From Candidatus Harrisonbacteria bacterium (lineage in GTDB: Bacteria > Patescibacteriota > Minisyncoccia > UBA6257 > 1-14-0-10-44-23), in assembly GCA_023255625.1 (NCBI GenBank), contig JAHFLF010000003.1, forward strand, positions 2,105-66,104: a DNA stretch of 64,000 nt. Reading direction: 5' to 3'. Below are positions 1,493-57,435 of this stretch, in pieces (the first letter of the stretch is position 1; every line of letters starts with the position of its first letter). Under the pieces are notes generated by a model that did not search any database, had not been told where the DNA came from, and saw only the letters and a list, made by a program, of their open reading frames with translations. The position numbers were made by a program, and so were the translations under genes.

Positions 1493-2281
1493 ATGAAACC
1501 TAAATCTCAATCGCAACGAAAATTTTTCCGACGGATCCGTTGGTATGCAATTATTGGCGGCGTAATACTGCTTGTCTTGCTGCTTGCGTTATTAGTTGTT
1601 AGATCACCATTTTTTAAGATAAATGAAATGATTGTCGTCGGCGTACCGTCAGAACTGCAGACAAAAATTATTGCCGAGCTGACGATCAACATTCTTCGCA
1701 TTCCGCGTTCTGCAATACTTGGGCCCGATAATTATTTTAGCTGGCCGGAAAAATTTCCATATACCGCCGATGAGGCAACGATGATTTCTATCAAAAAAGA
1801 CCTTTTTGACCGAAAGATTACTTTGACCGTAACGCCGCGCCAGCGATATGCGGTCTGGTGTCAGGGGCAACCGGAGGAATCCTTAAATTGTTTCTGGATT
1901 GATCAACTCGGAGTTATTTTTGAATCAGCGCCAATTGCAGATGGGCAATTAGTCCGGACGATTTATTCTGCGAGTCCAATTGGCCGCCCACTAACCGGGA
2001 CGCCTATATTAGCTCAAGAGATTTTTTCCGTAATTAAAAAAACGCTCGATGGATTATCTTCACTAGATATCGGTCTAGAAAAAATTGAATACAAGCAATC
2101 GCTACAGGAATTGCATCTGATAACCTCTGGCGGCACATTGCTCATGATCAGCACCCGCTTTGACCCCTCACCAACTGTTTTGCCGTCAATTCGCCGGCTT
2201 AGCTCTAACCCCGGGTTAGATAAATTAACTTATATAAATTTGACCGTCGAGAATCGGGCGTATGTGAAGTACCGGCAATAG
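1493..2281 (+). CDS. FtsQ/DivIB-like cell division protein (basic N-terminus, one TM, POTRA-like region)
   Basis: 262 aa. Basic cytoplasmic N-terminus, a single TM helix (AIIGGVILLVLLLALLVV), then SPFFKINEMIVVGVP typical of the FtsQ POTRA start. It starts 3 nt after the FemAB-like stop. Confidence 0.4.
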   Translation: MKPKSQSQRKFFRRIRWYAIIGGVILLVLLLALLVVRSPFFKINEMIVVGVPSELQTKIIAELTINILRIPRSAILGPDNYFSWPEKFPYTADEATMISIKKDLFDRKITLTVTPRQRYAVWCQGQPEESLNCFWIDQLGVIFESAPIADGQLVRTIYSASPIGRPLTGTPILAQEIFSVIKKTLDGLSSLDIGLEKIEYKQSLQELHLITSGGTLLMISTRFDPSPTVLPSIRRLSSNPGLDKLTYINLTVENRAYVKYRQ

Positions 2282-2365
2282 TTAATTAGTTAGCTGGTTA
2301 GTTTGTTAGTTAGCAGAAACTCAACCCACCAACTAACTAGCTAACCAAGTAACGAACTAACCATG
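2281..2365. repeat. Imperfect hairpin array of TTAGTTAG / CTAACTAA units (member of the CAACTAACTAGC repeat family)
   Basis: gttaattagttagctggttagtttgttagttagc ... caccaactaactagctaaccaagtaacgaactaacc. The two arms are reverse complements built from TTAGTT units, and every frame contains TAG/TAA. It follows the FtsQ-like stop. Confidence 0.6.
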
Positions 2366-6323: not shown

Positions 6324-6537
6324 ACGCCACCTCTCTCTGAAGACCTTGCCCCGATGATTGGTGCGGGAGCACTCACCTCACGCCTGGCGCCAACGCGACT
6401 CCAGACGACCCCAGCATACACCGAGGGATTACAAACCTTCTTTAACCTACTCTCGAATAATTATAGCGTCAAATCCCCGTGGTATACTGTATTTATTCGC
6501 GTTATTACCTTCCCATTCGCATTATCAGCGATTACTC

Positions 6538-7518
6538 ATGGATATTGTCTTCAGTCAAATAGTTCTAGCTGGCTCAATCGCCGTGATTATCAGTCTGATT
6601 GTCCGGCGTATCGGAAAAAAATGGCTTGCCCGAGAAAATTGGGTTCGGCTTTTATTCGTTATCCCCGAAGGAACAGTCAATCCTTTGGCTGTACATGACC
6701 AACATGAAATCGCGCTTTCTGCAGAACTTTACAAGCGCTTCAAAGAGCTCGGCATCCCATTCGGGCTTGAAGTAGTAGTGCAACTGCTCGGTGAAGAAAT
6801 TTATTTTTATATTATTGTTCGCAAAACCGATGCTCACCATGCCCATCAATTAATAGAAACACTTTGGCCGACTGGATATCTAAACGAATCAGAAGATTAC
6901 GATTTGTGGAGTAGCGGCAGTACCGCAATAAACCAAGCAACAGGCGCGTATCTGACATTACGAAACCCCTATAGTATTCCGCTTAAAATGGCTTCTAAGG
7001 GCAATTTTGAGCCATTCCTGGAGCTTTTAGCTAAGCTATCCCGACTATCTCCAGTAGGCGAGGGGGCAGCTATACAAATTATTACGCGACCAGCCAGTCA
7101 ACACCTACTACAGGCCGTTGGTACATATCTGCAAAAACTTGAATCCGGTCAGTATAGCCCTTCTAAATATATTCATGAAGAATTTATCATCACACCAGAA
7201 ACCGTTAAACTCGTCAGGAAAAAAGTGAGTTCACCGCTTTTTTCTGTTAATTTTCGAATCGTAACAAGTCATTCCCGCGGCGAAGCAGTCCGAATTTTAA
7301 GGACTATCACCGACCACCTGGAGAAAAAGTCTCATGACGAGCATCAGCAATATAATGAATTTGTCGCAAAAATTCCGAAGGATCAAAAATATTTCATAAA
7401 TGAATTTTTAAGATATACATTTGAACCAGCGCAGGAGATTGTTATGAGTGCCGATGAGCTGGCTACATATTTTCATTTTCCCGGTCCAACGACTGCCGGC
7501 GCAAAGATTAAGAGATAA
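6538..7518 (+). CDS. hypothetical membrane-anchored protein
   Basis: Begins MDIVFSQIVLAGSIAVIISLIV (N-terminal TM). The upstream 60 codons of the tracked ORF lie in the GC island and were discarded. No family recognised. Confidence 0.4.
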   Translation: MDIVFSQIVLAGSIAVIISLIVRRIGKKWLARENWVRLLFVIPEGTVNPLAVHDQHEIALSAELYKRFKELGIPFGLEVVVQLLGEEIYFYIIVRKTDAHHAHQLIETLWPTGYLNESEDYDLWSSGSTAINQATGAYLTLRNPYSIPLKMASKGNFEPFLELLAKLSRLSPVGEGAAIQIITRPASQHLLQAVGTYLQKLESGQYSPSKYIHEEFIITPETVKLVRKKVSSPLFSVNFRIVTSHSRGEAVRILRTITDHLEKKSHDEHQQYNEFVAKIPKDQKYFINEFLRYTFEPAQEIVMSADELATYFHFPGPTTAGAKIKR

Positions 7519-7622
7519 TTTTCAATTCTCAATTTCTAGTTTCTAAACAATTTCCAATTTAAAAATTCAGAAATTAAAACATTGTTTGGAAATTGAAAAT
7601 TATAAATTATAAATTAATGAAC
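7519..7622. repeat. AT-rich ~100-bp repeat cassette, copy A (family shared with 57325-57435 and the 23S helix-25 insert)
   Basis: ttttcaattctcaatttctagtttctaaacaatttccaatttaaaaattcagaaattaaaacattgtttggaaattgaaaattataaattataaatt. Internal palindrome AAACAAT..ATTGTTT. A TTGAAA ... A/T-rich stretch sits just before the downstream ATG, so it is probably a promoter. Confidence 0.6.
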
Positions 7623-7624
7623 CT

Positions 7625-7963
7625 ATGGATGGCCTTCCTCAACACCACATAAGTCTGCGCAAGCGTCTGTACGGCCGGCTTGAAGCATATCCGCACCCTA
7701 ACAAACTCAAACGTCGGGTAGACGACTTAGCATATATTTTTGGTATTGCGATACCGCTTTTCACTATTCCGCAGCTCTATGAAATTTGGAGTCACCATAA
7801 TGCAGGTAATAATTCGCTTATCACCTGGGGCGCATTCAGTATCTCATCGCTGTTTTGGCTTTTTTATGGTATCCTCCACAAAGTAAAGCCCGTTATTATT
7901 AGTCAATCGTTGTGGTTTATTTTACAACTTTTGATTGTTATAGGTATTCTTCTCTATAACTAA
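7625..7963 (+). CDS. SemiSWEET / PQ-loop family small sugar transporter
   Basis: 112 aa with three predicted TM helices and the PQ motif (FTIPQLYEIWSHH). Confidence 0.5.
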   Translation: MDGLPQHHISLRKRLYGRLEAYPHPNKLKRRVDDLAYIFGIAIPLFTIPQLYEIWSHHNAGNNSLITWGAFSISSLFWLFYGILHKVKPVIISQSLWFILQLLIVIGILLYN

Positions 7964-8346: not shown

Positions 8347-8350
8347 TCAT

Positions 8351-8422
8351 ACATTGGCCGGTTTTGTTTTTCAGCACTCCGTTTACGGTGAGCCCGTGCT
8401 GGAAAACAAAATCGGCCAATGT
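8351..8422. terminator. Bidirectional terminator hairpin (~30-bp stem) between convergent genes
   Basis: catacattggccggttttgtttttcagcac ... gtgctggaaaacaaaatcggccaatgtatg is a near-perfect inverted repeat with a T-run and an A-run. Confidence 0.55.
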
Positions 8423-8449
8423 ATGGAAAAATATAAATTGGCTATTAAA

Positions 8450-11832: not shown

Positions 11833-13365
11833 CTAAGCGACCGCAAGTTTTTGTAGCGCAATTTTGAGACGGCGAAGCGACTCATGTTTACCAAGTGCAA
11901 CAAGAATTTCAACCGGCGGTGGCGAATTCTCCTTGCCGGAAACAGCGACTCGAAGTGGCCACAGCACATCTCCCTTACCAAATTGTTCAGCAACTTTCAT
12001 AATCTTTGGCTCTAGAGATTCCTTCGTAAAAATCTGATCTGGTAATTCCTGCAGTAAATCAAAACAATACTGTAAATTAGTTTTGGCTGCGGCCGCATTA
12101 GATTTTTTCCAGACAAGCACGCTAGCAGCATATTCCGGTAACTCAAAGAAAAACCCGGACAGTTCTTGAAAATCTGCAAGTGTTACCATCCTTTCCTGCA
12201 CTAACGGAATAGCGAGAGCCAAGGATTCTTTGCTCCAACTAGGATCGCAAAATCCCCCCTCAACTAAGCAACTGACTAACCGACTAACTGATAACTGTTT
12301 GATGTAATGCGCATTAAAAAAATCCAGTTTTTGTTTATCAAATTTTGCTCCGCCTTTTTGCACACGGTCAAGCGAGAACAATTCTACCATTTCTTCAAAA
12401 GACAATATCTCTCGGCTACCAACCGGCCGGACCTCGCCCCGTACCGTGCTTTGCTCTGGTGCGGGGTGCCAGCCGATCAGCACCAAAAAGTTGATCAGCG
12501 CCTCGGGCAGGTAGCCGGCCTCGCGGTACTCGCGCACAGTTGTTCCCCCATCGCGCTTACTCATCTTCCCCTTCCCAGTGGCGCTTAAAATCAGTGGTAG
12601 GTGGGCGTACTGCGGCGAGCCAAAGCCAAGCGCCTGCGCAAGCGCAATCTGTTTGGGAGTGTTTGCCAGATGTTCCTCGCCGCGGATAACATGAGAAATC
12701 TGCATCTCGTGATCATCAATAACCACGGCAAAATTATACAGCGGCTCACTCATTGACTTTGCAATGACAATGTCGCCGCTAAGCGCATTATCAAATTCCA
12801 CCTCTCCGCGAATCAAGTCGGTCATCCCTATCTTTTCAGGAACAACCTTGAAGCGGATAACGCTCTCTTTACCCTCCGCCAGACTCTTCGCTATGTCTAG
12901 TTCCGTATATGAACGACATTTGCCGCTGTACTTCGGCACTTGGCCAGCTGACTCCTGACTCTGGCGTCTTGCTTCAAGCTCCTCTTTTGTACAAAAACAA
13001 TAGTACGCTTTGTGTTCACTAAGCAGTTGCTGCAAGTACTTTGCATACAGTTCTAGCCGGGCTTTTTGCCGGTACGGCCCGAATTCACCTTTTTCGGAAC
13101 CATCGGGTTTACCCGCCGTGGCGGGCATAACTCCTTCATCAAACACAATGCCCGCCCAATGAAAACTATTCAGGATGTCCTGCTCAAATTCTTTGGTTGA
13201 TCGCGCGTCATCGGTATCCTCAATTCGCAAAACAGCAGTTCCACCATGCTGCTTTGCGAATAAAATATTATAGAGTGCCGTGCGCACGCCGCCAATATGC
13301 AAACTGCCCGTTGGCGACGGGGCCATGCGAACACGAATTTTTTTATCTTTTTTAGATATCATCAT
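11833..13365 (-). CDS. gltX: glutamyl-tRNA synthetase
   Basis: RVRMAPSPTGSLHIGGVRTALYN (HIGH) and KMSKRDGG (KMSKS). Start placed at the MMISKK ATG pair (13360-13365); the tracked upstream start is a TTG. It carries an in-frame QLSVSRLVSCLVEG segment encoded by the TTAGTTAG repeat (12255-12300). Confidence 0.85.
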   Translation of the reverse strand: MMISKKDKKIRVRMAPSPTGSLHIGGVRTALYNILFAKQHGGTAVLRIEDTDDARSTKEFEQDILNSFHWAGIVFDEGVMPATAGKPDGSEKGEFGPYRQKARLELYAKYLQQLLSEHKAYYCFCTKEELEARRQSQESAGQVPKYSGKCRSYTELDIAKSLAEGKESVIRFKVVPEKIGMTDLIRGEVEFDNALSGDIVIAKSMSEPLYNFAVVIDDHEMQISHVIRGEEHLANTPKQIALAQALGFGSPQYAHLPLILSATGKGKMSKRDGGTTVREYREAGYLPEALINFLVLIGWHPAPEQSTVRGEVRPVGSREILSFEEMVELFSLDRVQKGGAKFDKQKLDFFNAHYIKQLSVSRLVSCLVEGGFCDPSWSKESLALAIPLVQERMVTLADFQELSGFFFELPEYAASVLVWKKSNAAAAKTNLQYCFDLLQELPDQIFTKESLEPKIMKVAEQFGKGDVLWPLRVAVSGKENSPPPVEILVALGKHESLRRLKIALQKLAVA

Positions 13366-19240: not shown

Positions 19241-19596
19241 ACAGTGCTTGAATGATCAGTCTAGTATGTCATCTTTCAACGAGAACCCATATATATGGCG
19301 CTCGTTGAACGACAACATCATTAGCGTCCCGCCAAAGGCGGGACTAGTAGTTAGTTGCGATGGCATATTAGTACGTCTCGGCTACACACCTTACGGTGCT
19401 TACACCTAACGCCTATCAACGTAGTAGTCTTCTACGAACCATCAAACATCCTTTCGAATATTCTGGTATCTAATCCTGGAGTTGGCTTCGTGCTTAGATG
19501 CTTTCAGCGCTTATCCATTCCGAACGTAGCTACCCGGCACGTCTACTTGGTAGTAGAGCCGGTACACCAGCGGTTCGTTCAATCCGGTCCTCTCGT

Positions 19597-20117
19597 CACG
19601 ATATTCTTGCGAATACTTTTCCCCTCTCACGAGGAGCGTAGACTATATCTTGACCCACCCTAAATCGCTTTTGCGACCGGGTAAAGGGTCTCGGCATCTT
19701 ACAAATGCAGCCCTGTCTGCGAAACATATCGCAAACTTTCTGGAACTACATAAGTCCGCCCGTTATCCCGCTGTTAGCGGAACCGGAACAAGTCGTTACG
19801 GGGTCAAGCGCGAAATACGCGCAAGTTGAAAGTTTATCAAGTTTATAAAGTTATAAAGTAGAAACGGAAACCCGCATCCACTTGATGAACTTTACAAACT
19901 TTCAACTTTACAAACTTGCGTGCTTTGCACGCCGACTTCCCACGGTATTGTCTTATTACTTTTCTGGTCCTCAAGCTTGTACGCCTTTGGCGTATAAATT
20001 GTACCACGCGTTTGAGGACTAACTCTCGCTTGGTTATCAACAGACCAGACCGTCATAAGATTCCACCGTTATTAGCCGAATTTTCATCACGCATTACTGC
20101 ATGAAGTAGCAAACTTT
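19597..20117 (-). ncRNA. group I intron A (ORF-less, ~521 nt) in the 23S sarcin-ricin loop region (between U2656 and A2657, E. coli numbering, inferred)
   Basis: P7/P9.0 core AAGATATAGTCTACGC on the minus strand. Removing 19597-20117 reconstitutes CCTAGT|ACGAGAGGACCGG. It contains a copy of the AAGTT composite palindrome (19806-19933). Confidence 0.6.
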
Positions 20118-20315
20118 ACTAGGATCGACTCTCCTCCGATACCATACGCCTGCAACAGATAGAGACCAACCTGTCTCACGACGGTTTGAACCCAGCTCAC
20201 GTGCCCTTTTAATTGGCGAACAGACAAACGCTTGGGAGCTTCTTCACCCCCGCGCTAGGGCGAGCCGACATCGAGGTGCCGAGCGTTGCCGTCGATAGGA
20301 ACTCTCGAGCAACAC

Positions 20316-20350
<35 letters not shown>

Positions 20351-20705
20351 TCTTTGTGCTTTCTATAAAGCAACATCGGGTCACTAAGTTCTGCTTTCGC
20401 ATCGGCGCGACTTGTAGGTCTTGCCGTTAAGCCAGCATGTGCCTTTACACGTTCAGCCCGATTTCCATCCGGGCCAAGCTGACCTTAATAAACTCCTCCG
20501 CTACTCTTTAGGCTTGTTGTTAGTTGCATGCATCATTTCTGTGCATCGCTTCATGTCGCCATGAAGGTCAGACTATATCTTCAGCATATCCGGATATGAT
20601 TGCTGTTTGGCGTATAGTCGTTGAGGACTCTCTTATTGAAGCTGAAAGAAGGAGTGAAATAAATAATTAATACATAATAACTACTTCACGTCCACGCGAT
20701 GCGTG

Positions 20706-20781
20706 TGGTGGGCTCTGAAGGACTTAAACCTCCGACCTCCTGGATTTCAACCAGGTGCTCTAGCAGCTGAGCTAAGAGCCC
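20706..20781 (-). ncRNA. tRNA-like structure 1 inside intron B: full cloverleaf with a Phe(GAA) anticodon arm and encoded CCA, but the D/T tertiary invariants are altered
   Basis: Minus strand: GGGCTCT TA GCTC AGCTGCTA GAGC A CCTGG TTGAAAT CCAGG AGGTC GGAGG TTTAAGT CCTTC AGAGCCC A CCA. C19 and U56 replace G19/C56. T-loop is TTTAAGT. Confidence 0.5.
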
Positions 20782-20797
20782 ACTTGTTCGCATTTTT

Positions 20798-20889
20798 TGG
20801 AGCGGGCGAGAGGATTCGAACCTCTACCCTATCGCCGCCAAAGCCCTTGCGGGCTCAAGGGGCTTGCCCTGCCGTTAGACCACGCCCGC
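20798..20889 (-). ncRNA. tRNA-like structure 2 inside intron B: class II-like (long extra arm) with canonical acceptor, D and T arms but an aberrant anticodon region
   Basis: Minus strand: GCGGGCG TG GTC TAACGGCAG GGC A AGCCCCTTGAGCCCGCAAGGGCT ... AGAGG TTCGAAT CCTCT CGCCCGC T CCA. U8, GG in the D-loop and T-loop TTCGAAT are present. No 5-bp stem plus 7-nt anticodon loop can be drawn. A GCAA-tetraloop hairpin AGCCC/GGGCT occupies the region. Confidence 0.4.
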
Positions 20890-21407
20890 TCCGTTACAAC
20901 ATTGCTTGCGATTTTCCTCCTTCTTTCAACTTCAATAAGGTTGCCTGCTGATTGTCCGCATCGATCTTGAATTTTTACCCTTTTCGACAAGAGGTATCAA
21001 GATATGCCCGGATATTCCAGCATATAGCCAAATTTTTTACCGTTAACCCCCATATGCGCAGAGGCACATATATACTTGAGGATAACGCCCCATTAAAACT
21101 GCCCACCAGGCACTGTCCCGCGACGTTTTTGCCGTCGAGGTTAGAATCTAAAATTTTACAGATGGCTGTTTCATTGTTGGATCCATGTCTCCCGAAAGAG
21201 ACACTTCAAATCCTCGCCACTACGCTACGCAGTAAAATCCTAGAGCCAATACCAAGCTACAGTAAAGCTCCCGGGGTCTTTTCGTCTTGCTGCAGGTACC
21301 CAGCGTCTTCACTGGACTCGCATTTTCACCGAGCTCTTCGTTGAGACAGTTCTCCACTCGTTACACGATTCGTGCGCTTCGGAACTTACCCGAAAAGGAA
21401 TTGCGCT

Positions 21408-21956
21408 CACTATTGTTACTATCCGCCAGCTTGCGGACGGATGAATATTTCTATTCACCTCTATGCATTACTGCACAGGTCGGACTATATCTTCATATAT
21501 GCGTTATCAGGCGCATACTGTTCGGCGTGTAGTCTCTACAGGGTCATATTGAAGCTGAAAGAAGGATGCGAAGTGTATCGCTACTCCTTCGTATCCGCGC
21601 GGAAGGCGCGAAAGAGAGGTGACGGGTCTCATGTATTTACCCGCATTGCAATAAAGACTCGTAGTCTTTAATCTTGAGGCAACCGGCTCGCCCCGAATTG
21701 CACTGCAGCCCTTGCGGGTTCTGCAGGAAGCAGCCATACCATCCGAAGGCAACAGGCTCGAGTAGTCTGGTGGACGCTGTGCGCCACTCGAATCTCTTCC
21801 GCCTACATCGGAGCTAACCCTTGCTTCTCACACCCCTCTCATTTTCCTTCTTTCAACTTCAATAGACTTCCCTCGGTATTGTCCAAGACAAAATTTCCTT
21901 TCCTATATTCTTGGATGTTCACCGATATAGCCAAATTTTACTAAGGCAAGCAATTC
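21408..21956 (-). ncRNA. group I intron C (ORF-less, ~549 nt) at 23S helix 69, site L1917 (inferred)
   Basis: P7 3'/P9.0 AAGATATAGTCCGACC plus P9 hairpins GGTGAATAGAAATATTCATCC and TCCGCAAGCTGGCGGA. Removing the intron joins ...TAACTATAATCGTTCTAAGGT|AGCGCAATTCC, which matches the E. coli sequence CUAAGGU|AGCGAAAUUCC. Confidence 0.65.
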
Positions 21957-22004
21957 ACCTTAGAACGATTATAGTTATCGCTGACATTGACGAGGGCTTC
22001 GGGC

Positions 22005-22130
22005 AGTGCGCATGCCCTGCGCACAAGTCGCAAGTTTATCAAGTTCTTCAAGCTCGAAAGTAGAAACCGGAATTCGGCCTTACTTGATAAACTTGATGAA
22101 CTTTTTACTTGACGAACTGTGTGCAGAGCA
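22005..22130. repeat. AAGTT composite palindromic element, copy in the 23S helix 68 region
   Basis: GCGCACAAGTCGCAAGTTTATCAAGTTCTTCAAG ... CTTGATAAACTTGATGAACTTTTTACTTGACGAACTGTGTGC, flanked by small GCGCA..TGCGC hairpins. It replaces about 25 nt of E. coli sequence with about 135 nt. Confidence 0.6.
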
Positions 22131-22261
22131 CACACCCACCGTTAACCTTCTCGCATCGGTCACGTGTCACCCCCTATACATCCTCTTGCGAGTTAGCAGG
22201 GAGTTGTGTTTTTGATAAACAGTCGGCAGAGATACTTTCGCTGCGGCCCCGCGCGCACAGC

Positions 22262-22391
22262 GCGCAAGTCACAAGTTTATCAAGTTCATAAAGTTATAAA
22301 GTAGAAACGGGAATCGCTTCCGGTATTCACTTGATGAACTTTACGAACTTTCAACTTGATGAACTGCGTGCTGCGCACGCCGGGCAGGCCT
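22262..22391. repeat. AAGTT composite palindromic element, copy replacing 23S helix 63; about 85% identical to the copy inside intron A
   Basis: gcgcgcacagcgcgc + caagtcacaagtttatcaagttcataaagttataaagtagaaac...cacttgatgaactttacgaactttcaacttgatgaactg + cgtgctgcgcacgcc. Confidence 0.6.
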
Positions 22392-23595
22392 TATTGCTAA
22401 CTTACGGCCGCTTTTTTGCCGAGTTCCTTAACGAAGATTCACTCGTTCCCCTGAGGATACTCTCCTCACCCACCAGTGTCGGTTTACGGTACGATGCACA
22501 TGTTCTAAACTTAGAAGTTTTTCTTGGAAGGCTATTCTGCTGTATTAGTCTTGGAAAACCAAAACCTTATCGGAACGCGCGCACTACTACATTAAAGTAA
22601 GCTACCCGGATTTACCTGGATAACAGTGCTTATCGTCCTAAACGCCAAACCATTAAGGCGCACAGCTCTATGTCCTCCGTCACTCCATCGCACAAACATG
22701 CGCGGGCCGGAATATTAACCGGCTTCCCATTAGCTACGGTTCTCACCATTGCCTTAGGATCGCCTAACCCGCGGTTGATTGCCATTGCCGCGGAAACCTT
22801 GGATTTTCGGGGTACGCGTTTCTCACGCGTATTGTGGTTACTTGTGCCAACATTCTCTCTTCCAAACGCTCCACGGGCTCTCACGAGTCCCGCTTCACAG
22901 CTATATTCGTCCTTCAACGAATGATTGGAATGCTCTCCTACCGCGCCACCTGATAAATCAAGTGACACCCGCAATTTCGGTACTATGTTTAGCCCCGGTA
23001 CATTTTCGGCGCAGTCGCCCTCGAATAGTGAGTTGTTACACACTCTTTAAAGGATGGCTACCTCTAAGCCAACCTCCTATCTGTCTATGGGAAACTACTA
23101 CCTTTAACACTTAACATAGATTTAGGGACCTTAATTTGCGATCTGGGCTCTTCCCCTCGCGACCATGGAGCTTTGCCCCCACAGTCTAACTAGCTAGACG
23201 TTTTATGTGAGTATTCGGAGTTTAACTGAAATGTCGCCCTTTCGGGCTGTACACCTCAACTAGTAGCTCTACCCCTCACATGATGTCTCTAGCCGCTAGT
23301 CCGAAAACTATTTCGGAGAGAACCAGCTATTACCAAGCTCGATTAGCTTTTCACTTCTTATCCCAAGTCATCCCAGGGTTTTGCACAACCCACGAGTTCG
23401 GTCCTCCATAGGATTTTACTCCTACTTCAACCTGCTCAGGACAAGCTCGCCTTGGCTTCGGGTCTTATGTATGCCGCTTATTGTCGCGCTATTAACACTC
23501 GGTTTCCCTACGCCTCCACCGCCGAAGCGGCTTAGACTAATGCGACACACATAAACTCGTTGGCTCATTCTTCAATAGGCACATAGTCACCCCAC

Positions 23596-23735
23596 GCGCA
23601 CCTCACTGCTGTGACGTGCGCAATTTTCAATTACCAATTTTCAATTTTCAAACAATTTTGAAATTAATCAATTGTTTAGAAATTAGAAATTAGAAATTAG
23701 AAATTGCGCACTCTCACGACAGTGAGATGCGCGCT
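23596..23735. repeat. Insertion in 23S helix 25 region: AT-rich cassette (same family as 7519-7622 and 57325-57435) closed by GC-rich inverted repeats
   Basis: gcgcacctcactgctgtgacgtgcgc | aattttcaattaccaattttcaattttcaaacaattttgaaattaatcaattgtttagaaattagaaattagaaattagaaatt | gcgcactctcacgacagtgagatgcgcgc. Confidence 0.6.
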
Positions 23736-23798
23736 GGGGGCTCCTATTCATTGTAAGCGTACGGTTTCAGGTACTATTTCACCGCCCTTACCGGGCTG

Positions 23799-23839
<41 letters not shown>

Positions 23840-23935
23840 TGAAGTGTATTTAGCCTTACCGGATAGTACCGGTATGTTCCCGCATAGTTTATTTGCCACG
23901 CGGTACTCTAGAAATCTCATATTGCTACAAGACCA

Positions 23936-24195
23936 GTCCTGTATGTCACATATGCCGCGAAATGCGGAAGCATTAAAATTGTCGAGACCGCGACGCGAGT
24001 GGCGAGACATATGGCTATGCCATAAGCTCGACGCTCGCAACAAAGGTATCGACAATTTTAATGCTTTGACGGGCTAATTTTTGCCTGATTCTTTGTTGCT
24101 TGTCGTAGCCATAGCTAAAGCTATTGTCTACTCCGCGCGCCTAGAATCATGCCAAAATTCGCACCGCCGCATTCGTGTCATATGTGACATACAGG
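23936..24195. repeat. ~260-375-nt insertion in 23S domain I (between E. coli positions ~200 and ~460) with nested perfect inverted repeats
   Basis: Outer 17-bp inverted repeat: cctgtatgtcacatatg (23936-23952) / catatgtgacatacagg (24179-24195). Inner 16-bp inverted repeat: gcattaaaattgtcga (23967-23982) / tcgacaattttaatgc (24046-24061). There is an rRNA-length excess of about 375 nt here. Confidence 0.6.
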
Positions 24196-24694
24196 ACAAA
24201 AAACGAGAGTCAGAACTGTTTTCGCATACTGGGCTATCACCATCTTTGGCGCGTCTTTCCAGGCGCTTCTGCTAACAGACTGTTTTTTAACTCTCTTTTT
24301 ACAAATCACGCAGCAGCCGTAAAGCTGCTCCGTGAAAAGTAAAAGTGTTTTTCTCTAAACCCCCAAAAGATTTATTGCTAAATCCCTCGAGTTTGGGCTC
24401 TTCCGTTTTCGCTCGCCGCTACTAACGGAATACAATTTGTATCTTTTCCTCTGGTTACTGAGATGTTTCACTTCACCAGGTTGACGAACGCATCACTTAT
24501 GTATGCGAACTATGTCGGGTTACGACATAAGGTTTCCCCATTCGGAAATCTCCGGATCACAGGTTGCTAACACCTCCCCGAAGCTTATCGCAGCTACGCC
24601 ACGTCCTTCATCGCCACTTCATGCCAAGGCATCCACCGTACGCCCTTTAACGCTCTGACGCATGTCAGAGCTCACTAACCACATAATGCTCAAG

Positions 24695-24812
24695 CGCGCA
24701 TAGCGCGCAAGTAACAAGTGGCACAAGTGAAAACTGGTAAACAAGTGAATGCAAATCCACTTGCCTACTCGTGTCTACTTGTTTCTACTTGCGAACTGCG
24801 TGCTACGCACGC
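24695..24812. repeat. AAGTT composite palindromic element, copy in the 23S leader
   Basis: gcgcgcatagcgcgc aagtaacaagtggcacaagtgaaaactggtaaacaagtgaatgcaaatccacttgcctactcgtgtctacttgtttctacttgcgaactg cgtgctacgcacgcc. Confidence 0.55.
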
Positions 24813-25384
24813 CTGAGACTAGACTGATCATTCAAGCACTGCACCGCCTTCGCGGTGAAGTCGCCCGTCTTGCTTTCGCAAAACTTTGTTTACTCCGACG
24901 GCAAGTCGAAGCGAGCTATCTATTTTCAAATGCGACTAAGAAAAAAGAATCGCTCGATTTTGTCATAATTTCAAACATGGATATACAGTAAATACGATGT
25001 TTTACTTTCACGACTCCGGCACGCTTGCCCTAACAAGCGCATAGCCGGCTCTATATATAGAAGACACATTACTACTTAAGCGCCGCCCTACGGACGACTG
25101 GTAATAATGTCTTTTCTATACTGGATCTGTAAAGGTGCAACTTCACTTATCCAGTCCTACAAGCAACCAATGTTTCTTACTAGCCAGCGAAGGAATTACC
25201 CGCGCCGTTGGCGGGGTCAATTTCTTGGTAGAAATTGAAAACCGCTCTTTTCGAGCGGCTACGAAACCAACTCAAACTTTTCCTACTTGTCCGCCTCAGG
25301 CGGAATCGGAAAAGTTCAATGGTTTTTGTGCCGCAGGAATTAAGATAAAATTTAACATTTAGTAGCTAGTGACTGATGGGAAAG

Positions 25385-26116: not shown

Positions 26117-27583
26117 TTAATAAAGACGCGGGAAGAGCGGTTGAGTTGGTTTAACCACACTCATCTTACCGTCTACCGGATGCATGCACGCATCGATTTT
26201 GCCCGCCGTTTCCGGCAGAAAAATCTTGAGTAGTTGCCGGACATTATTTAAAATTTCCAGAGCATTGACTAAAATAAGCCGCTGCTCGTTCGAGCCAGTT
26301 ACTAAACTCCAGGGCTTATTTTCAGCCAGATAGCGATCCCCAAAACTAACTAAGCTCCAGATTGCCGCCAGCGACTCATGTAATTTTCGTTCTTCAATAC
26401 CTTTTGTTACGGCGACTTTGGCCTGATTATTAGCAGCAGTAATCTCTGCAGCAAATTCCGGAGAAGCAAAACCAATCTCGCCGAGCTTTTCAGCCAGAGT
26501 CAAAACTCTGGAGGCAAAATTACCCAGTCCGTTCGCCAAATCCGCATTGTAGCGCAGTTTAAATTTTTCATCGCTAAAATCACCATCGCCGTCAGACGGA
26601 ATCTCGCGGAGAAGATAGTAGCGCACTGCGTCAACACCATATTTTTGAACAAGCTCTACGGGGTCAACAGTATTGCCAAGCGACTTAGACATCTTCTGGC
26701 CGTTCACCGTTATATAGCCATGCACAAATAACTCTTTAGGCAGGGTTAACTTTGCAGAAAGCAGCATCGCCGGCCAATAAATTGCGTGGAAACGGATAAT
26801 TCCTTTGCCGATAATATGCAGGTTCGGCGGCCACCAGTCCTGGCCAGTTTGATTATTACCGGATTCAGCGGCGGTTCGATAATAATTCAGCGCATCAAAC
26901 CAGACATACATAATCTGATCCGGATCGCCTGGCACTGGCACGCCCCAGTTATGCGCCCGTTCTTTTGAACGAGAGATACTAAAATCCTCTAGTCCTTGCT
27001 TAATAAAGCCAAGTGCTTCGTTTTTGCGGTGCTCGGGGACAATTTTATATTCATCAGAGTTCAAAATTTTAGCCAGCTGGCCCTGGTATTTGGAAAGTTT
27101 AAAAAAATAATTTTCCTCTTCAATCTCATCCAGTTTACGGCCAGGGTGTTCATGGCACTCCCCCTTCTCATTTAATTCATCTAATGTATAAAACTGCTCG
27201 CAGCCCACACAGTACAATCCTTTATATTTTTTCTTGTAAATATCGCCGGCATCGGCGCAACGAGTCCAAAGATCCTGCGCAGAGAGAAAATGTTCCGGTG
27301 CGGTTGTCCGCTGGAAATGGTCAAAACTAATATTATAGAGCTTACCCAAATCTAAAAATGCTTGAGCGTTGCGATCACACAACTGCTGCGTCGTGATGCC
27401 CTCTTTCTGCGCGGCCTGTACATTTTTTAGAGAATTTTCATCGGCGCCGTAGATAAAAAATACCTCGTCGCCTTTTTGGCGACGATAGCGCGCGATCACA
27501 TCGGCCTCGACTAGCTCCATCGCAAAACCGATATGCGGCTTAGCGTTCACATAAGGAATGGCGGTGGTCAGGTAGAAGCGCAT
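26117..27583 (-). CDS. metG: methionyl-tRNA synthetase (short form, no C-terminal tRNA-binding domain)
   Basis: MRFYLTTAIPYVNAKPHIGFA (HIGH-type motif); KMSKSLGN present. Confidence 0.85.
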   Translation of the reverse strand: MRFYLTTAIPYVNAKPHIGFAMELVEADVIARYRRQKGDEVFFIYGADENSLKNVQAAQKEGITTQQLCDRNAQAFLDLGKLYNISFDHFQRTTAPEHFLSAQDLWTRCADAGDIYKKKYKGLYCVGCEQFYTLDELNEKGECHEHPGRKLDEIEEENYFFKLSKYQGQLAKILNSDEYKIVPEHRKNEALGFIKQGLEDFSISRSKERAHNWGVPVPGDPDQIMYVWFDALNYYRTAAESGNNQTGQDWWPPNLHIIGKGIIRFHAIYWPAMLLSAKLTLPKELFVHGYITVNGQKMSKSLGNTVDPVELVQKYGVDAVRYYLLREIPSDGDGDFSDEKFKLRYNADLANGLGNFASRVLTLAEKLGEIGFASPEFAAEITAANNQAKVAVTKGIEERKLHESLAAIWSLVSFGDRYLAENKPWSLVTGSNEQRLILVNALEILNNVRQLLKIFLPETAGKIDACMHPVDGKMSVVKPTQPLFPRLY

Positions 27584-27700
27584 GGTAGGTAGTTAGCTAG
27601 TTAGTTGGTTACTTTGTTAGTTAGTTTAATACGGAAACGCTTTACTGCAAATTTCTTGACTGACTAACCGTCGACCGACTAACTGGCGACTACTCCGTCT
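27584..27700. repeat. TTAGTTAG / CTAACTAG hairpin array in the metG 5' region (member of the CAACTAACTAGC family)
   Basis: ggtaggtagttagctagttagttggttactttgttagttag ... gactgactaaccgtcgaccgactaactgg. Confidence 0.55.
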
Positions 27701-31564: not shown

Positions 31565-31598
31565 CTATGTTACAGCGTACTAGTACGCTGTAACATAG
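31565..31598. repeat. 34-bp perfect palindrome CTATGTTACAGCGTACTAGTACGCTGTAACATAG (copy 1)
   Basis: Read directly. A second copy at 40848-40881 differs only at a symmetric compensating pair (C/G to T/A). Confidence 0.7.
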
Positions 31599-31639: not shown

Positions 31640-32980
31640 CTATTCTGACAATTTTGCCAAAATGTATGCCGGTAACTCACTGATTTTTACCCGTTCCTGC
31701 TTCATAGTGTCGCGATCACGAACGGTAACAGTATCAATTTTGGCCTGGTCGCTCCCCTCCTCGCCAAGAGTTTCAAAATCAATAGTTACGCAAAATGGCG
31801 TGCCAATTTCGTCCTGACTGTAGTATCTTTTTCCGACATTTCCCCTATCGTCCCAGGCCACAGTTAGTTGGTTAGTTGGTTGGCTAGTTAGTTGGTTAAA
31901 TACTTCGCGGGCCTTTTCAACTAACGCGGGTTTGTTGGCTAAGAGTGGAAACACGGCAACTTTGTACGGGGCAACCCATTTTGGTAATTTCAAATAGACG
32001 CGATCATTTTCTTTATCTTCTGTAAACGCCTCAAGAAGAGTAACGAGCACGCTGCGGTCAAGACCGAAACTTGGCTCAATCACATACGGATAGATTTTTT
32101 CGTTGGTCTCGGGATCCTGATACGGCGGCTCGGCAAAGTGATTCTTTAAATCAAAATCAGTTCGCGAGGCAAGACCATAAAGCTCTTTCTGGCCAAATGG
32201 ATACTTGTATTCAACATCAATTGTTTTTGCGGAGTAGTGCGCGCGTTCACCGTCAGCAATAGGCACATACACAACATGCTCGTCTTTAACTCCCAAATCT
32301 TTGACCCACTGCTTCATCTGGGTAAGCCAGTAATCAAAATGCTGATCCCACTCGCTGGGTTTTACAAAATATTCAAATTCCATGAGGTCAAACTCACGCT
32401 GGCGGAAGATAAAGTTGCCGGGCGTTATCTCATTGCGAAATGCGCGGCCCTGACTGGCAATACCAAACGGCAACCGCTTACGGCTCGTGTCTAAAACATT
32501 TTTAAAATTAACAAACATCGCCTGGGCAATCTCCGGACGAAGATAGACCGTGCTCGCCTTTTCTTCGGTTGGCCCGAGCGAGGTCTTGAGCATTAGATTG
32601 AAATTCTTTGGCTCGGTGAAACCATCCTTTCCGCTGCATGCCTGGCACGGCTTCGCTGAATCAATTTGATCCGCTCGAAAACGCGCATGACATTTTTTGC
32701 ACTCCACCAGCGGGTCATTGAAAGTCGCCAGGTGGCCACTTTTCTCCCAAACCTTCGGATTCATAATGACAGCCGCATCCAGCCCAACCATGTCATCGCG
32801 ATGCTCCACGAACCGCCTCCACCACTCGTCCTTGATATTTTTCTTAAGCTGCGCCCCAAGCGGCCCGTAATCCCAGGAGTTTGCCAGCCCGCCATAAATT
32901 TCAGAGCCCGGAAATACAAAACCCCGCCGCTTACAGAGCGCAATTACTTTCTCCATCAAATCATCTTTTCCTTGTTCCAT
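31640..32980 (-). CDS. glyQS: glycyl-tRNA synthetase, dimeric class II (alpha2) type
   Basis: MEQGKDDLMEKVIALCKRRGFVFPGSEIYGGLANSWDYGPLG... is typical of the GlyRS alpha2 type. It contains an in-frame FNQLTSQPTNQLTV insert encoded by the CAACTAACTAGC repeat (31860-31905). Confidence 0.85.
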   Translation of the reverse strand: MEQGKDDLMEKVIALCKRRGFVFPGSEIYGGLANSWDYGPLGAQLKKNIKDEWWRRFVEHRDDMVGLDAAVIMNPKVWEKSGHLATFNDPLVECKKCHARFRADQIDSAKPCQACSGKDGFTEPKNFNLMLKTSLGPTEEKASTVYLRPEIAQAMFVNFKNVLDTSRKRLPFGIASQGRAFRNEITPGNFIFRQREFDLMEFEYFVKPSEWDQHFDYWLTQMKQWVKDLGVKDEHVVYVPIADGERAHYSAKTIDVEYKYPFGQKELYGLASRTDFDLKNHFAEPPYQDPETNEKIYPYVIEPSFGLDRSVLVTLLEAFTEDKENDRVYLKLPKWVAPYKVAVFPLLANKPALVEKAREVFNQLTSQPTNQLTVAWDDRGNVGKRYYSQDEIGTPFCVTIDFETLGEEGSDQAKIDTVTVRDRDTMKQERVKISELPAYILAKLSE

Positions 32981-40847: not shown

Positions 40848-40881
40848 CTATGTTACAGTGTACTAGTACACTGTAACATAG
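40848..40881. repeat. 34-bp perfect palindrome CTATGTTACAGTGTACTAGTACACTGTAACATAG (copy 2)
   Basis: Read directly. It lies between rplS and tRNA-Leu. Confidence 0.7.
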
Positions 40882-50206: not shown

Positions 50207-50290
50207 TTGCAAAAACCTCCTGATTATCTTAGTTAGAAAATATGAATTTTGCACAAAGGGAGCACTAAATCTTATGTGCTCATCTTGTGC
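50207..50290. terminator. Long perfect hairpin (28-bp stem) between purB and folD; putative terminator or attenuator
   Basis: ttagttagaaaatatgaattttgcacaa ... ttgtgcaaaattcatattttctaactaa. Confidence 0.4.
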
Positions 50291-50314
50291 AAAATTCATA
50301 TTTTCTAACTAAAT

Positions 50315-54766: not shown

Positions 54767-54934
54767 GCGAGAAATAATTTAATGGTAAAACAAAACCGCC
54801 TAACAGTGGCGGTTTCTAAACAATAACATAAGAAGCCGCCAAAAACTATGAGGCGACTCGCGAGGTAAATGAAGACCAGGTTGTGATGTGAGCGTTGTGA
54901 AGCATAGGATTAGTATAGCATAAGTTTGTCTTTG

Positions 54935-55006
54935 TGCGCGTGGGAGGGATCGAACCTCCGGCCTTTTCATTATCAGTGAAATGCTCTACCACTGAGCTAC
55001 ACGCGC
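54935..55006 (-). tRNA. tRNA-Ile (anticodon GAT)
   Basis: GCGCGTG TA GCTC AGTGGTA GAGC A TTTCA CTGATAA TGAAA AGGCC GGAGG TTCGATC CCTCC CACGCGC A. Confidence 0.85.
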
Positions 55007-55260
55007 CCTTCTTCGCTTAGCTTGGTAACTAAGCTTCGCAAGGGCAAGAGATGGTATATCTGTATCTCTCGTCCTTCCGAAGCTCGAGTACTCACGAGCG
55101 TAGGAGGAAGCTACACGCGCCCTTCTTCGCTTAGCTTGGTAACTAAGCTTCGCAAGGGCAAGAGATGGTATATCTGTATCTCTCGTCCTTCCGAAGCTCG
55201 AGTACTCACGAGCGTAGGAGGAAGCTACACGCGCCCTTCTTCGTTAAAGCTTCGCAGGGC
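55007..55260. repeat. Tandem direct repeat (107-bp unit, about 2.4 copies) abutting the tRNA-Ile 5' end; each unit ends with a mimic of the tRNA 5' end (AGCTACACGCGC)
   Basis: Unit cccttcttcgcttagcttggtaactaagcttcgcaagggcaagagatggtatatctgtatctctcgtccttccgaagctcgagtactcacgagcgtaggaggaagctacacgcg repeated at 55007-55113 and 55114-55220, then truncated to 55260. Confidence 0.8.
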
Positions 55261-57324: not shown

Positions 57325-57435
57325 TGCAAATTTCTATTTTTCAATTTCTAATTCCTAAACAATTTCCAATTTATAAATTTCAAAATTAAAATATTGTTTG
57401 AAAATTGATAATTAAAAATTAGAAATTTTACACCC
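57325..57435. repeat. AT-rich ~100-bp repeat cassette, copy B (about 85% identical to 7519-7622), immediately upstream of topA
   Basis: ttttcaatttctaattcctaaacaatttccaatttataaatttcaaaattaaaatattgtttgaaaattgataattaaaaattagaaatt. Confidence 0.6.

What the first reader, a model, noticed from the sequence alone, without database searches (positions are those of the whole stretch)
23596..23735. The same AT-rich cassette sits upstream of two protein genes and inside 23S helix 25
Cassette A (7519-7622, upstream of the SemiSWEET gene) and cassette B (57325-57435, upstream of topA) are about 85% identical over ~95 bp. They share the internal palindrome AAACAATT...AATTGTTT and tandem GAAATT/AGAAATT units. 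A third member is embedded in the 23S gene between GC-rich inverted repeats (gcgcacctcactgctgtgacgtgcgc / gcgcactctcacgacagtgagatgcgcgc), at the helix-25 site that hosts intervening sequences in other bacteria. A promoter-like AT-rich cassette doubling as an rRNA insertion suggests a small mobile element, or a protein-binding module co-opted in different contexts.
Basis: seen in the sequence. Interest (0 to 1): 0.6.

Follow-up and report, generated by a model that had tools for sequence, protein, structure and literature searches.

The report
Dispersed palindromic repeat inside 23S helix 25
The AT-rich insert at the tip of 23S rRNA helix 25 is a true copy of a roughly 90-bp palindromic repeat that fills gene spacers in many Patescibacteria (CPR) genomes, so short rRNA intervening sequences in this group appear to be built from a dispersed repeat element.

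Summary
Cassettes A (7517-7615) and B (57329-57427) are 85% identical. The core of the helix-25 insert (C, 23622-23705) shares their layout: 7-nt AATT-phased arms around AAACAATT...AATTGTTT.

A profile built only from other genomes scores A, B and C at 46-55 bits. Nothing else in the window exceeds 4 bits, so this is not low-complexity chance.

The cassette belongs to a family found in many Patescibacteria MAGs. Family copies fill otherwise minimal spacers whatever the gene orientation. The orthologous dprA-topA spacer lacks the element in all four relatives examined. A copy also caps 23S helix 45 in a Saccharibacteria MAG. AATT-periodic hairpins cap helix 25 in about 15 metagenomic 23S loci, some scoring as family members.

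In rRNA the core is bracketed by GC-rich palindromic clamps and folds into one long hairpin (-80 kcal/mol).

Best reading: a dispersed palindromic repeat that spreads by an unknown route, nested here in an IVS-type insert that is probably excised. Excision is inferred, not shown. The promoter reading is not supported. Short CPR inserts at IVS sites are published; I found no description of the intergenic family or its link to them.

The parts
23622..23705 (-). AT-rich core of the helix-25 insert (copy C). It has four AATTTTC-type heptads, AAACAATT, a 12-nt centre, AATTGTTT, then four AGAAATT heptads. This is the short-centre variant of the family.
   Evidence: Searches give sequence and coordinates; 46.3 bits, E 1.7e-13, with a profile built without the window copies; it aligns with the short-centre members L018, L068 and L092.
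23706..23734 (-). GC-rich clamp on the 5' side of the insert in the rRNA (GCGCGCAUCUCACUGUCGUGAGAGUGCGC). It is itself a palindrome.
   Evidence: It pairs with the other clamp in the minimum-free-energy fold. Read by eye, it can also fold on itself.
23596..23621 (-). GC-rich clamp on the 3' side of the insert in the rRNA (GCGCACGUCACAGCAGUGAGGUGCGC). It resembles the other clamp as a direct repeat and is also palindromic.
23583..23595 (-). 3' strand of the native helix-25 stem (GUGGGGUGACUAU), which carries the insert.
   Evidence: cmscan alignment to the bacterial LSU model.
23735..23745 (-). 5' strand of the native helix-25 stem (AGGAGCCCCCA).
   Evidence: cmscan alignment and fold.
7517..7615 (.). 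Intergenic copy A. It fills the whole spacer between ORF 6358-7518 and the weak MtN3/SemiSWEET-like ORF 7625-7963.
   Evidence: D6; 54.7 bits.
57329..57427 (.). Intergenic copy B. It fills the spacer between dprA (56289-57323) and topA (57436-59652).
   Evidence: D6; 48.8 bits. An identical copy lies on a second assembly, L002.
19351..24659 (-). Host 23S rRNA gene, about 5.3 kb because of several insertions. It is bracketed by a 24-nt, 100% complementary processing stem (24818-24841 with 19242-19265).
   Evidence: One search gives the 5' end. maps model positions 2500-2925 to 20300-19351. (I24) gives the processing stem.

Best explanation
The 140-bp insert at the tip of 23S helix 25 is an intervening-sequence (IVS)-type hairpin. 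Its 84-bp AT-rich core is a genuine copy of a dispersed palindromic repeat of about 85-100 bp. The repeat has 7-nt AATT-phased arms around an AAACAATT...AATTGTTT core and is widespread in Patescibacteria (CPR). A and B are ordinary intergenic copies of the same family.

The family behaves like a non-autonomous insertion element. It lands in places that tolerate an extra hairpin. These are the tiny spacers between genes, whatever their orientation, and the exposed tips of rRNA helices. It turns over on the timescale of genus- or family-level divergence.

In rRNA the core is bracketed by two GC-rich palindromic clamps, so the transcript extends helix 25 by about 65 bp. By analogy with classical helix-25 and helix-45 IVSs, this extension is most likely cut out by RNase III, leaving a fragmented 23S rRNA.

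In the dprA-topA and SemiSWEET-like spacers the element is co-transcribed or silent baggage, with at most a modest effect on RNA stability or processing.

Shown: family membership, hairpin potential, position in the rRNA, distribution, and absence at an orthologous site. Inferred: mobility, excision by RNase III, and lack of a dedicated function in mRNA.
For: (1) Family membership is not a composition effect. The independent profile scores A, B and C at 46-55 bits and nothing else in the window above 4 bits. Shuffle z-scores are 9-20.

In 54 of those loci the hit also carries AATT-heptad arms on both sides, which the pattern did not require. Most named ones are Patescibacteria of many classes: Saccharibacteria, Magasanik-, Buchanan-, Falkow-, Doudna-, Zambryski-, Staskawicz-, Moraniibacteria and Parcubacteria. 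Several MAGs have many copies. CAJVWV01 has 7 loci.

(3) Context. Spacers with an element have a median length of 110 nt, against 74 nt without (lower quartile 17 nt). The mix of co-directional, convergent and divergent pairs is 31:3:4, against a background of 218:37:29 (p=0.68). This shows no preference for the 5' or 3' ends of genes.

(4) Turnover. The dprA-topA pair is syntenic in relatives. In L158 and L159 (DprA 62% identical) the spacer is 16 nt with no element. L160 and L161 carry a different 7-nt-periodic hairpin built of TAAAC units. L162 carries an unrelated sequence. No family hit occurs in about 76 kb of those relatives.

(5) Recurrence in rRNA. A family copy sits at the apex of helix 45 in a Saccharibacteria MAG (L031). 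About 15 metagenomic 23S loci carry a GC clamp plus AATT-periodic arms at helix 25. Those in L120, L122, L130, L132 and L144 score 20-27 bits with the family profile. Family-like hits also lie at other places in the same 23S genes and in a 23S-5S spacer.

(6) C folds as one hairpin of -80 kcal/mol, z=-14.

(7) Tsurumaki et al. 2024 (PMC11270868) report many short non-intron inserts at the known IVS sites of CPR 23S genes and consider them probable RNase III-cleaved IVSs.
Against: No target-site duplication beyond chance was found. The ends are AATT on both sides, which would hide an AATT duplication. No transposase or autonomous parent was identified. No copy was found in viral contigs.

Strong conservation of primary sequence across deep CPR lineages is unusual for a purely selfish repeat. 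It suggests recognition by a conserved protein.

The intergenic copies are weak hairpins, averaging about -18 kcal/mol with a median z of -3.8. Mirrored heptads are non-complementary more often than expected (41 against 14, Fisher p=2e-4). Hairpin stability is therefore not what is being conserved.

The relatives compared are distant (50-64% DprA identity). Absence there shows turnover, not recent movement.

Excision of the insert from rRNA is untested.

Fourteen family-positive loci carry unverified 'uncultured Gammaproteobacteria/Bdellovibrionales' labels.
Confidence: 0.55

Rival explanations
1. The element is a functional RNA-processing cassette. Its hairpin is a substrate for a double-strand-specific RNase such as RNase III. 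Cleavage removes it from 23S rRNA. In polycistronic mRNAs, cleavage occurs a few nucleotides upstream of the next start codon, which uncouples cistrons and creates near-leaderless 5' ends in genomes that lack Shine-Dalgarno sites.
For: Elements end 0-15 nt before the next ATG and start 0-15 nt after the previous stop. Genes that follow elements have no Shine-Dalgarno motif (1 of 31), and element-bearing genomes are SD-poor overall (26 of 294). In the window, 17 of 40 genes have a TAnnnT box 6-9 nt before the ATG, against about 6 expected. By eye, the two genes after A and B lack one at that distance. The same element sits at the two classical RNase III IVS sites.
Against: The closeness to stop and start codons is what insertion into a 10-20-nt spacer would give anyway. 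Copies occur in convergent and divergent spacers at background frequency. A relative manages with a 16-nt dprA-topA spacer and no element. Sense and antisense RNA fold equally well, -18.1 against -18.1 kcal/mol, p=0.93. The hairpins are weak and carry maintained mismatches.
Confidence: 0.15
2. The element acts on DNA as a protein-binding module. This is the first reader's promoter or regulator idea: the phased AATT heptads and the central palindrome bind a conserved nucleoid-associated protein, regulator or RNA polymerase, and the rRNA copy is a co-opted or accidental site.
For: Primary sequence is conserved across deep CPR lineages, rather than base pairing. There is no strand asymmetry. The heptad period places TTGAAA and GAAAAT 17 nt apart in many right arms (read). 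Y:R opposition is maintained without Watson-Crick identity.
Against: The sigma-70 scan finds 0 sites in A and one weak central site in B. The -10-like hexamers lack the TAnnnT form seen before other genes of this genome. Copies lie between convergent genes and inside 23S genes at several helices. The orthologous topA spacer has no such site in any of the four relatives examined.
Confidence: 0.12
3. The helix-25 insert is a permanent expansion segment kept in the mature ribosome. It is not excised. Its likeness to A and B then has no bearing on rRNA processing.
For: Helix 25 is a variable, surface-exposed site. The hairpin is very stable. Nothing here shows cleavage. CPR rRNAs are known for unusual insertions (PMC11270868).
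Against: Classical inserts at this site are excised (established knowledge, cited). The paper read says its own findings support a previous study's results on these inserts. That the earlier work (Brown et al. 2015) found CPR rRNA insertions missing from transcripts is my recollection and was not read here. A 38-bp A-U helix with a mismatch every 7 nt is an odd permanent ribosome component.
Confidence: 0.15
4. The similarity is chance resemblance between AT-rich, low-complexity spacers.
For: All three copies are 80-90% A+T and built of short repeats. Dinucleotide shuffles do not preserve periodicity.
Against: The independent profile separates A, B and C by more than 40 bits from every other AT-rich segment of the window. 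They share an ordered layout of arms, core, centre, core and arms with 54 elements from other genomes.
Confidence: 0.02

Closest known systems
Classical 23S rRNA intervening sequences at helices 25 and 45 (Salmonella, Yersinia, Campylobacter, Leptospira, Coxiella)
   Same: Same two insertion sites. The insert replaces the terminal loop with a long stem-loop whose ends pair. Distribution is sporadic. No ORF is needed. These IVSs have long been suspected of a mobile origin.
   Different: Here the core is a recognisable copy of a repeat that is also dispersed in intergenic spacers, and the same family is seen at both helix 25 and helix 45. The core is bracketed by two palindromic GC clamps. Excision by RNase III is not shown for this case.
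Short non-intron insertions at sites 23IS2 and 23IS4 of CPR 23S genes (Tsurumaki et al. 2024, PMC11270868)
   Same: Same clade, same sites and same size class (under 250 bp, no intron, no ORF). C is almost certainly one of these.
   Different: In the section read, that study classifies them by position and length only and suggests they are IVSs. That section does not report a shared sequence family or relatives in intergenic spacers.
Correia repeat-enclosed elements of Neisseria (MITE, about 100-155 bp)
   Same: Small non-coding elements bounded by inverted repeats, with many copies, mostly intergenic and close to genes. They are co-transcribed into hairpins. From my own knowledge, those hairpins are RNase III substrates.
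   Different: Correia elements have a TA target duplication, an IHF site and proven promoters, and are confined to one genus. The CPR family shows no detectable duplication, spans a superphylum, and also sits in rRNA genes.
REP/BIME, ERIC and pneumococcal BOX elements
   Same: Extragenic palindromic repeats that sit inside operons. BOX is modular with a variable number of internal units, as the heptad arms and centre are here.
   Different: REPs are short and GC-rich and are linked to RAYT transposases. None of these is known at rRNA helix tips. The CPR element is AT-rich with a strict 7-nt phase.
Rickettsia palindromic elements (RPE)
   Same: Palindromic repeats that insert into functional genes at positions where the product tolerates them (own knowledge).
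   Different: RPEs insert in frame into protein genes. The CPR family was not seen inside verified ORFs, and the functional genes it enters are rRNA genes.

Membership tests
23S rRNA intervening sequence (helix-25/45 type) | Inserted at the apical loop of helix 25 (E. coli about nt 540-550) or helix 45 | tested here: met
   cmscan alignment: the insert lies between the two strands of the hairpin that follows ACAAUGA, LSU model positions about 583/584. The helix numbering comes from my own knowledge of the E. coli sequence.
23S rRNA intervening sequence (helix-25/45 type) | The 5' and 3' ends of the insert pair to form an extended stem-loop | tested here: met
   One hairpin of -80 kcal/mol, z=-14, with 0 of 200 shuffles as stable. 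Comparable folds occur in 6 other helix-25 inserts.
23S rRNA intervening sequence (helix-25/45 type) | Excised from the precursor by RNase III without re-ligation, giving fragmented 23S rRNA | not testable with these tools
   Needs RNA-seq, Northern blots or in vitro cleavage.
[quoted passage not shown] | Small, non-coding and bounded by terminal inverted repeats | tested here: met
   84-99 bp. The arms are 36-42 nt and 81-89% complementary (I6, I7, I10).
[quoted passage not shown] | Multiple dispersed copies per genome | tested here: met
   3 copies in 64 kb here. 7 loci in MAG CAJVWV01 and 6 in MHIM01.
[quoted passage not shown] | Target-site duplication flanking each copy | tested here: inconclusive
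   Flanks of 42 copies share no more than shuffled pairs do (2.95 against 3.01). For k=2, 7 are identical against 3.7 expected. The AATT termini could mask an AATT duplication.
[quoted passage not shown] | A related autonomous insertion sequence or transposase with matching ends | not tested
   None was noticed in the window or loci. No systematic search was made.
[quoted passage not shown] | Filled and empty orthologous sites | tested here: met
   The dprA-topA spacer is filled here and on L002. It lacks the element in all four relatives examined: 16 nt and empty in L158 and L159, and filled by other sequences in L160-L162. The comparison is only at 50-64% DprA identity.
REP/BIME | Short (20-40 nt), GC-rich imperfect palindrome, linked to a RAYT transposase | tested here: not met
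   The element is 84-99 bp and 80-90% A+T. RAYT linkage was not examined.
Sigma-70 promoter | -35 and -10 hexamers 16-18 nt apart, with A at position 2 and T at position 6 of the -10 | tested here: not met
   0 sites in the A region, where 1.8 are expected by chance. One weak site (TTTCCA-18-TAAAAT) lies in the centre of B.
Intrinsic terminator | GC-rich stem followed by a run of T | tested here: not met
   None in or next to A or B on the coding strand.
Group I intron | Match to the catalytic core model | tested here: not met
   Rfam finds a group I intron only at 20549-21075 and nothing at 23596-23735.
TIGR array (Tas-associated guide RNA array) | Tandem 36-nt units with box C/D-like edge and loop repeats, next to a Nop-domain tas gene | tested here: not met
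   The period is 7 nt, the copies are single, and they lie between housekeeping genes. The family's features are taken from PMC12045711.

The most novel reading that the evidence does not exclude
The AATT-heptad palindrome is a CPR-wide RNA-processing cassette. A conserved double-strand RNase or heptad-binding protein cuts it wherever it is transcribed. This fragments 23S rRNA at helices 25 and 45. It also severs polycistronic mRNAs just upstream of start codons, giving near-leaderless messages in genomes that have largely given up Shine-Dalgarno initiation. Classical rRNA IVSs would then be one face of a general cistron-separating device.
Probability: 0.1. Interest if true: 0.8.

Novelty: new variant of a known kind. 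Interest (0 to 1): 0.5.

Why it matters
Where rRNA intervening sequences come from has been an open question since they were found in Salmonella. Here the core of a helix-25 insert can be traced to a named, searchable repeat family. That family also fills gene spacers and caps helix 45 in another class of CPR bacteria. This makes 'IVS = inserted palindromic repeat' directly testable by surveying filled and empty sites and by end-mapping RNA.

The result also gives CPR genomics a recurrent non-coding element to annotate. Such elements probably contribute to assembly breaks and to the 'uncharacterised short insertions' reported in most CPR 23S genes. The conservation of heptad sequence, rather than of base pairing, points to an unknown conserved partner protein.

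Tried and rejected
- **Promoter and terminator scans of A and B.** They gave no support for either.
- **Target-site duplication test on 42 copies.** No signal.
- **Sense versus antisense RNA folding of 37 co-directional copies.** No strand bias, so no evidence for selection on the mRNA strand.
- **Enrichment in co-directional gene pairs.** Not different from background. My earlier impression of an 'intercistronic' preference was dropped.
- **Viral contig scan.** Five chance hits and no family member.
- **TIGR arrays.** Rejected on period, copy structure and gene context.
- **Integron attC sites.** Rejected by eye: the neighbours are housekeeping genes and there is no GTTRRRY core.
- **Literature.** Only the CPR rRNA insertion survey is relevant. 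No description of the intergenic family was found in the library searched, which is not exhaustive.
- **Strain variants of the 23S region.** Only the source contig had retrievable DNA.
- **Source contig.** About 118 kb of the 183,730-bp contig lies outside the window. Only about 3.3 kb of it was retrievable (L001), so the whole-genome copy number is unknown.

Full report
**1. What is in the window**

Rfam places a bacterial 23S rRNA gene on the minus strand. Its 5' end is at 24659. A second scan maps model positions 2500-2925 to 20300-19351. The gene is therefore about 5.3 kb, far longer than the 2.9-kb model.

A cmscan alignment of 23480-23900 shows about 140 nt with no counterpart in the model. 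They lie exactly between the two strands of the hairpin that follows ACAAUGA. By my knowledge of the E. coli sequence, this is helix 25.

On the plus strand the insert reads as follows:
- clamp GCGCACCTCACTGCTGTGACGTGCGC (23596-23621);
- an 84-bp AT-rich core (23622-23705);
- clamp GCGCACTCTCACGACAGTGAGATGCGCGC (23706-23734).

As RNA it folds into a single hairpin of -80 kcal/mol (z=-14).

Cassette A (7517-7615) starts inside the TAA stop codon of ORF 6358-7518 and ends 9 nt before the ATG at 7625. Cassette B (57329-57427) lies between the dprA stop and the topA start. topA is solid. The 'SemiSWEET' gene is only a sub-threshold MtN3_slv match.

**2. Is the similarity real?**

A and B are 85% identical over 99 nt. 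Alignment scores of A-C and B-C exceed all 500 dinucleotide shuffles (z about 9-10).

Shuffles destroy periodicity, so I made a stricter test. I built a profile from 54 elements of other genomes only and searched the window. A, B and C scored 54.7, 48.8 and 46.3 bits. The next hit scored 3.7 bits, even though five other segments have GC of 25% or less.

One correction applies. The exact AAACAATT/AATTGTTT palindrome occurs only in C. A and B each differ by one base in the right half.

**3. The family**

In 54 of those loci the hit also carries tandem AATTTNN heptads to the left and NNAAATT heptads to the right. The pattern did not ask for these.

The layout is modular:
- three or four heptads;
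- AAACAATTT;
- one to four further AATT-phased units, with C having the short centre, like L018, L068 and L092;
- AATTGTTT;
- three or four heptads.

The named hosts are overwhelmingly Patescibacteria of many classes. Fourteen loci carry automatic 'uncultured Gammaproteobacteria/Bdellovibrionales' labels, and three carry archaeal labels. I did not verify these.

Copies within one genome share genome-specific centres. Examples are A and B here, the CAJVWV01 set, and the MHIM01 set.

The window organism itself is a Parcubacteria/Paceibacteria-type CPR bacterium, judged from the names of its DprA relatives. Its source contig is ENA ERZ27297344 k141_5146887, 183,730 bp.

**4. Where the copies sit**

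Elements usually begin within 15 nt of a stop codon and end within 15 nt of the next ATG. At first this looked like an intercistronic signal.

Measured against the background of the same loci, it is not. Co-directional, convergent and divergent pairs are 31:3:4 with an element and 218:37:29 without (p=0.68). Spacers with an element are about one element length (median 110 nt) and so are otherwise minimal.

The simplest reading is insertion into very short spacers of compact genomes, with no preference for gene starts or ends.

**5. Turnover**

dprA-topA synteny is conserved in relatives. The spacer is not:
- L158 and L159 (62% DprA identity): 16 nt, with no element;
- L160 and L161: a different hairpin with 7-nt-periodic TAAAC arms;
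- L162: an unrelated sequence with a TATAAT box.

The family profile finds nothing in about 76 kb of these relatives. The element is thus dispensable for topA. Its distribution is patchy, as expected for something that spreads and is lost. The comparison is distant, so it does not show recent movement.

**6. Recurrence in rRNA**

In the Saccharibacteria MAG locus L031, a family copy lies at the apex of the hairpin that follows ACCGAAG, which is helix 45, the second classical IVS site.

A metagenome scan anchored on CCTGAAACCG plus two AATT heptads gave 44 loci. About 15 of them are 23S genes with a helix-25 insert built as GC clamp, AATT-periodic arms, GC clamp. Those in L120, L122, L130, L132 and L144 score 20-27 bits with the family profile.

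The same genes carry further family-like hits in domain I, near helix 45 and in a 23S-5S spacer. L047 has a copy about 460 nt upstream of its 23S gene.

This repeat family, and AATT-heptad hairpins more broadly, cap rRNA helix tips in CPR bacteria.

Tsurumaki et al. (PMC11270868) had already reported many short non-intron insertions at the known IVS sites of CPR 23S genes and guessed that they are RNase III-type IVSs. In the section I read, they do not describe a sequence family or intergenic relatives.

Eight literature searches found no description of the intergenic family.

**7. How it probably works**

For C, the geometry matches a classical IVS, and the stem is long enough for RNase III. 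I consider excision the most likely fate, but nothing here shows it.

Read by eye, each clamp is itself a palindrome. The two clamps of one insert resemble each other as direct repeats. In L130 and in the window's AAGTT-type hairpins, T-A pairs in one clamp correspond to C-G pairs in the other.

The insert could therefore fold either as one long hairpin or as three hairpins. After removal of the AT core, the clamps might cap the new fragment ends. This last point is speculation.

For A and B, I found no support for a promoter or a terminator. There is no strand bias in RNA folding, and the hairpins are weak.

The arms do not conserve pairing. Heptad positions 1-5 are A-T. Positions 6-7 are Watson-Crick in only about 25% of mirrored units, G·U-type in about 30%, and mostly C·A otherwise. 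TTC units face TCT units more often than chance allows (41 against 14, p=2e-4).

What is conserved is the phased sequence, with pyrimidine opposite purine. This hints at a protein partner and remains unexplained.

No target duplication, no transposase and no phage copy were found. The means of spread is unknown.

**8. Verdict**

The 'promoter-like' part is unsupported.

The helix-25 insert is a new member of a known kind, the CPR short IVS. The link to a superphylum-wide intergenic palindromic family is, as far as I could find, undescribed. I rate the whole as a new variant of a known kind, of moderate interest.

Noticed in passing
window 20549-21075 (-), with 20706-20781 and 20798-20889: A group I intron inside the 23S gene (Rfam 54.9 bits) encloses two tRNA-like genes: tRNA-Phe(GAA) and a 92-nt tRNA-Lys(CUU). 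ARAGORN calls both, and Rfam scores them at 67 and 41.9 bits. tRNA genes nested in an rRNA intron look unusual.
   Followed up: no
window 19351-24659 (-): The 23S gene is about 5.3 kb. It has at least three group I-like insertions, with AGATATAGTC-type cores near 21490, 20580 and 19650 on the RNA strand. It also has a 262-nt insert at 23936-24197 bounded by a 26-nt inverted repeat. Rfam's whole-window hit wrongly ended the gene at 20042; the true 3' end is about 19351.
   Followed up: partly
window 24694-24813, 22251-22381, 22010-22134, 19808-19933: This is a second hairpin family, with about 8-nt-periodic AAGTT arms and small GC palindromic clamps. It occurs four times in the rRNA operon: just upstream of the 23S 5' end, twice inside the gene (by eye, the helix 63 and helix 68 regions), and inside the 3'-proximal insertion (D4, D7, D8, D10, D14). 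It has the same architecture as C but a different sequence.
   Followed up: partly
window 2280-2361, 27583-27680, 31862-31919, 140-167, 12264-12291: This is a third family of hairpins, whose arms are AGTT/GGTT tetramer repeats. The copy at 2280-2361 fills the whole gap between ORFs 1493-2281 and 2363-2803. The copy at 27583-27680 fills the gap between metG and the AI-2E transporter gene.
   Followed up: partly
window-wide; gene starts listed: The genome has almost no Shine-Dalgarno motifs (7 of 48 by a loose test). A TAnnnT box lies 6-9 nt before the ATG in 17 of 40 genes, against about 6 expected. This suggests widespread leaderless transcripts. Other element-bearing CPR loci are also SD-poor (26 of 294).
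   Followed up: partly
family alignment; window 23622-23705: Mirrored heptads in the two arms are systematically non-complementary at positions 6-7: TTC faces TCT, giving U·G plus C·A. This occurs 41 times against 14 (Fisher p=2e-4), while pyrimidine stays opposite purine in about 80% of cases. Neither the hairpin model nor the decay model explains it.
   Followed up: partly
window 23596-23621 and 23706-23734; L130, L120, L117 helix-25 inserts; L031 4430-4600: The GC clamps that flank rRNA-borne copies are each palindromic and resemble each other as direct repeats. By eye, a TCTCACT...GCGTTC-like motif recurs in clamps of unrelated inserts at both helix 25 (window, L122, L152) and helix 45 (L031).
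   Followed up: partly
window 31565-31598 and 40848-40881; 8348-8425; 50229-50312: Other intergenic perfect or near-perfect palindromes are present. Two are copies of CTATGTTACAG(C/T)GTACTAGTAC(G/A)CTGTAACATAG. There is a 30-nt-arm GC-rich hairpin between convergent genes, and a 37-nt-arm hairpin between co-directional genes.
   Followed up: no
window 54995-55243: A 114-nt unit is repeated exactly 2.2 times in tandem, starting within the 3' end of tRNA-Ile (54934-55006) (D3, D20).
   Followed up: no
L123 (N. albigula foregut contig), L114/L153, L157, L116/L121/L135/L136/L143: Hairpins or single arms made of AATTTNN-type heptads also occur in contigs that look GC-rich or Bacteroidales-like rather than CPR. 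One example is (AATTTAG)3...(CTAAATT)4 in L123. Heptad-armed hairpins may therefore be broader than the CPR family.
   Followed up: no
L161 11039-11245: In one relative, the dprA-topA spacer holds a short duplicated topA 5' end (ATGAAACTTGTTATTGCTGAGTCGCCGACCAAGG...) right after its TAAAC-type hairpin. This suggests a rearrangement at that spacer.
   Followed up: no
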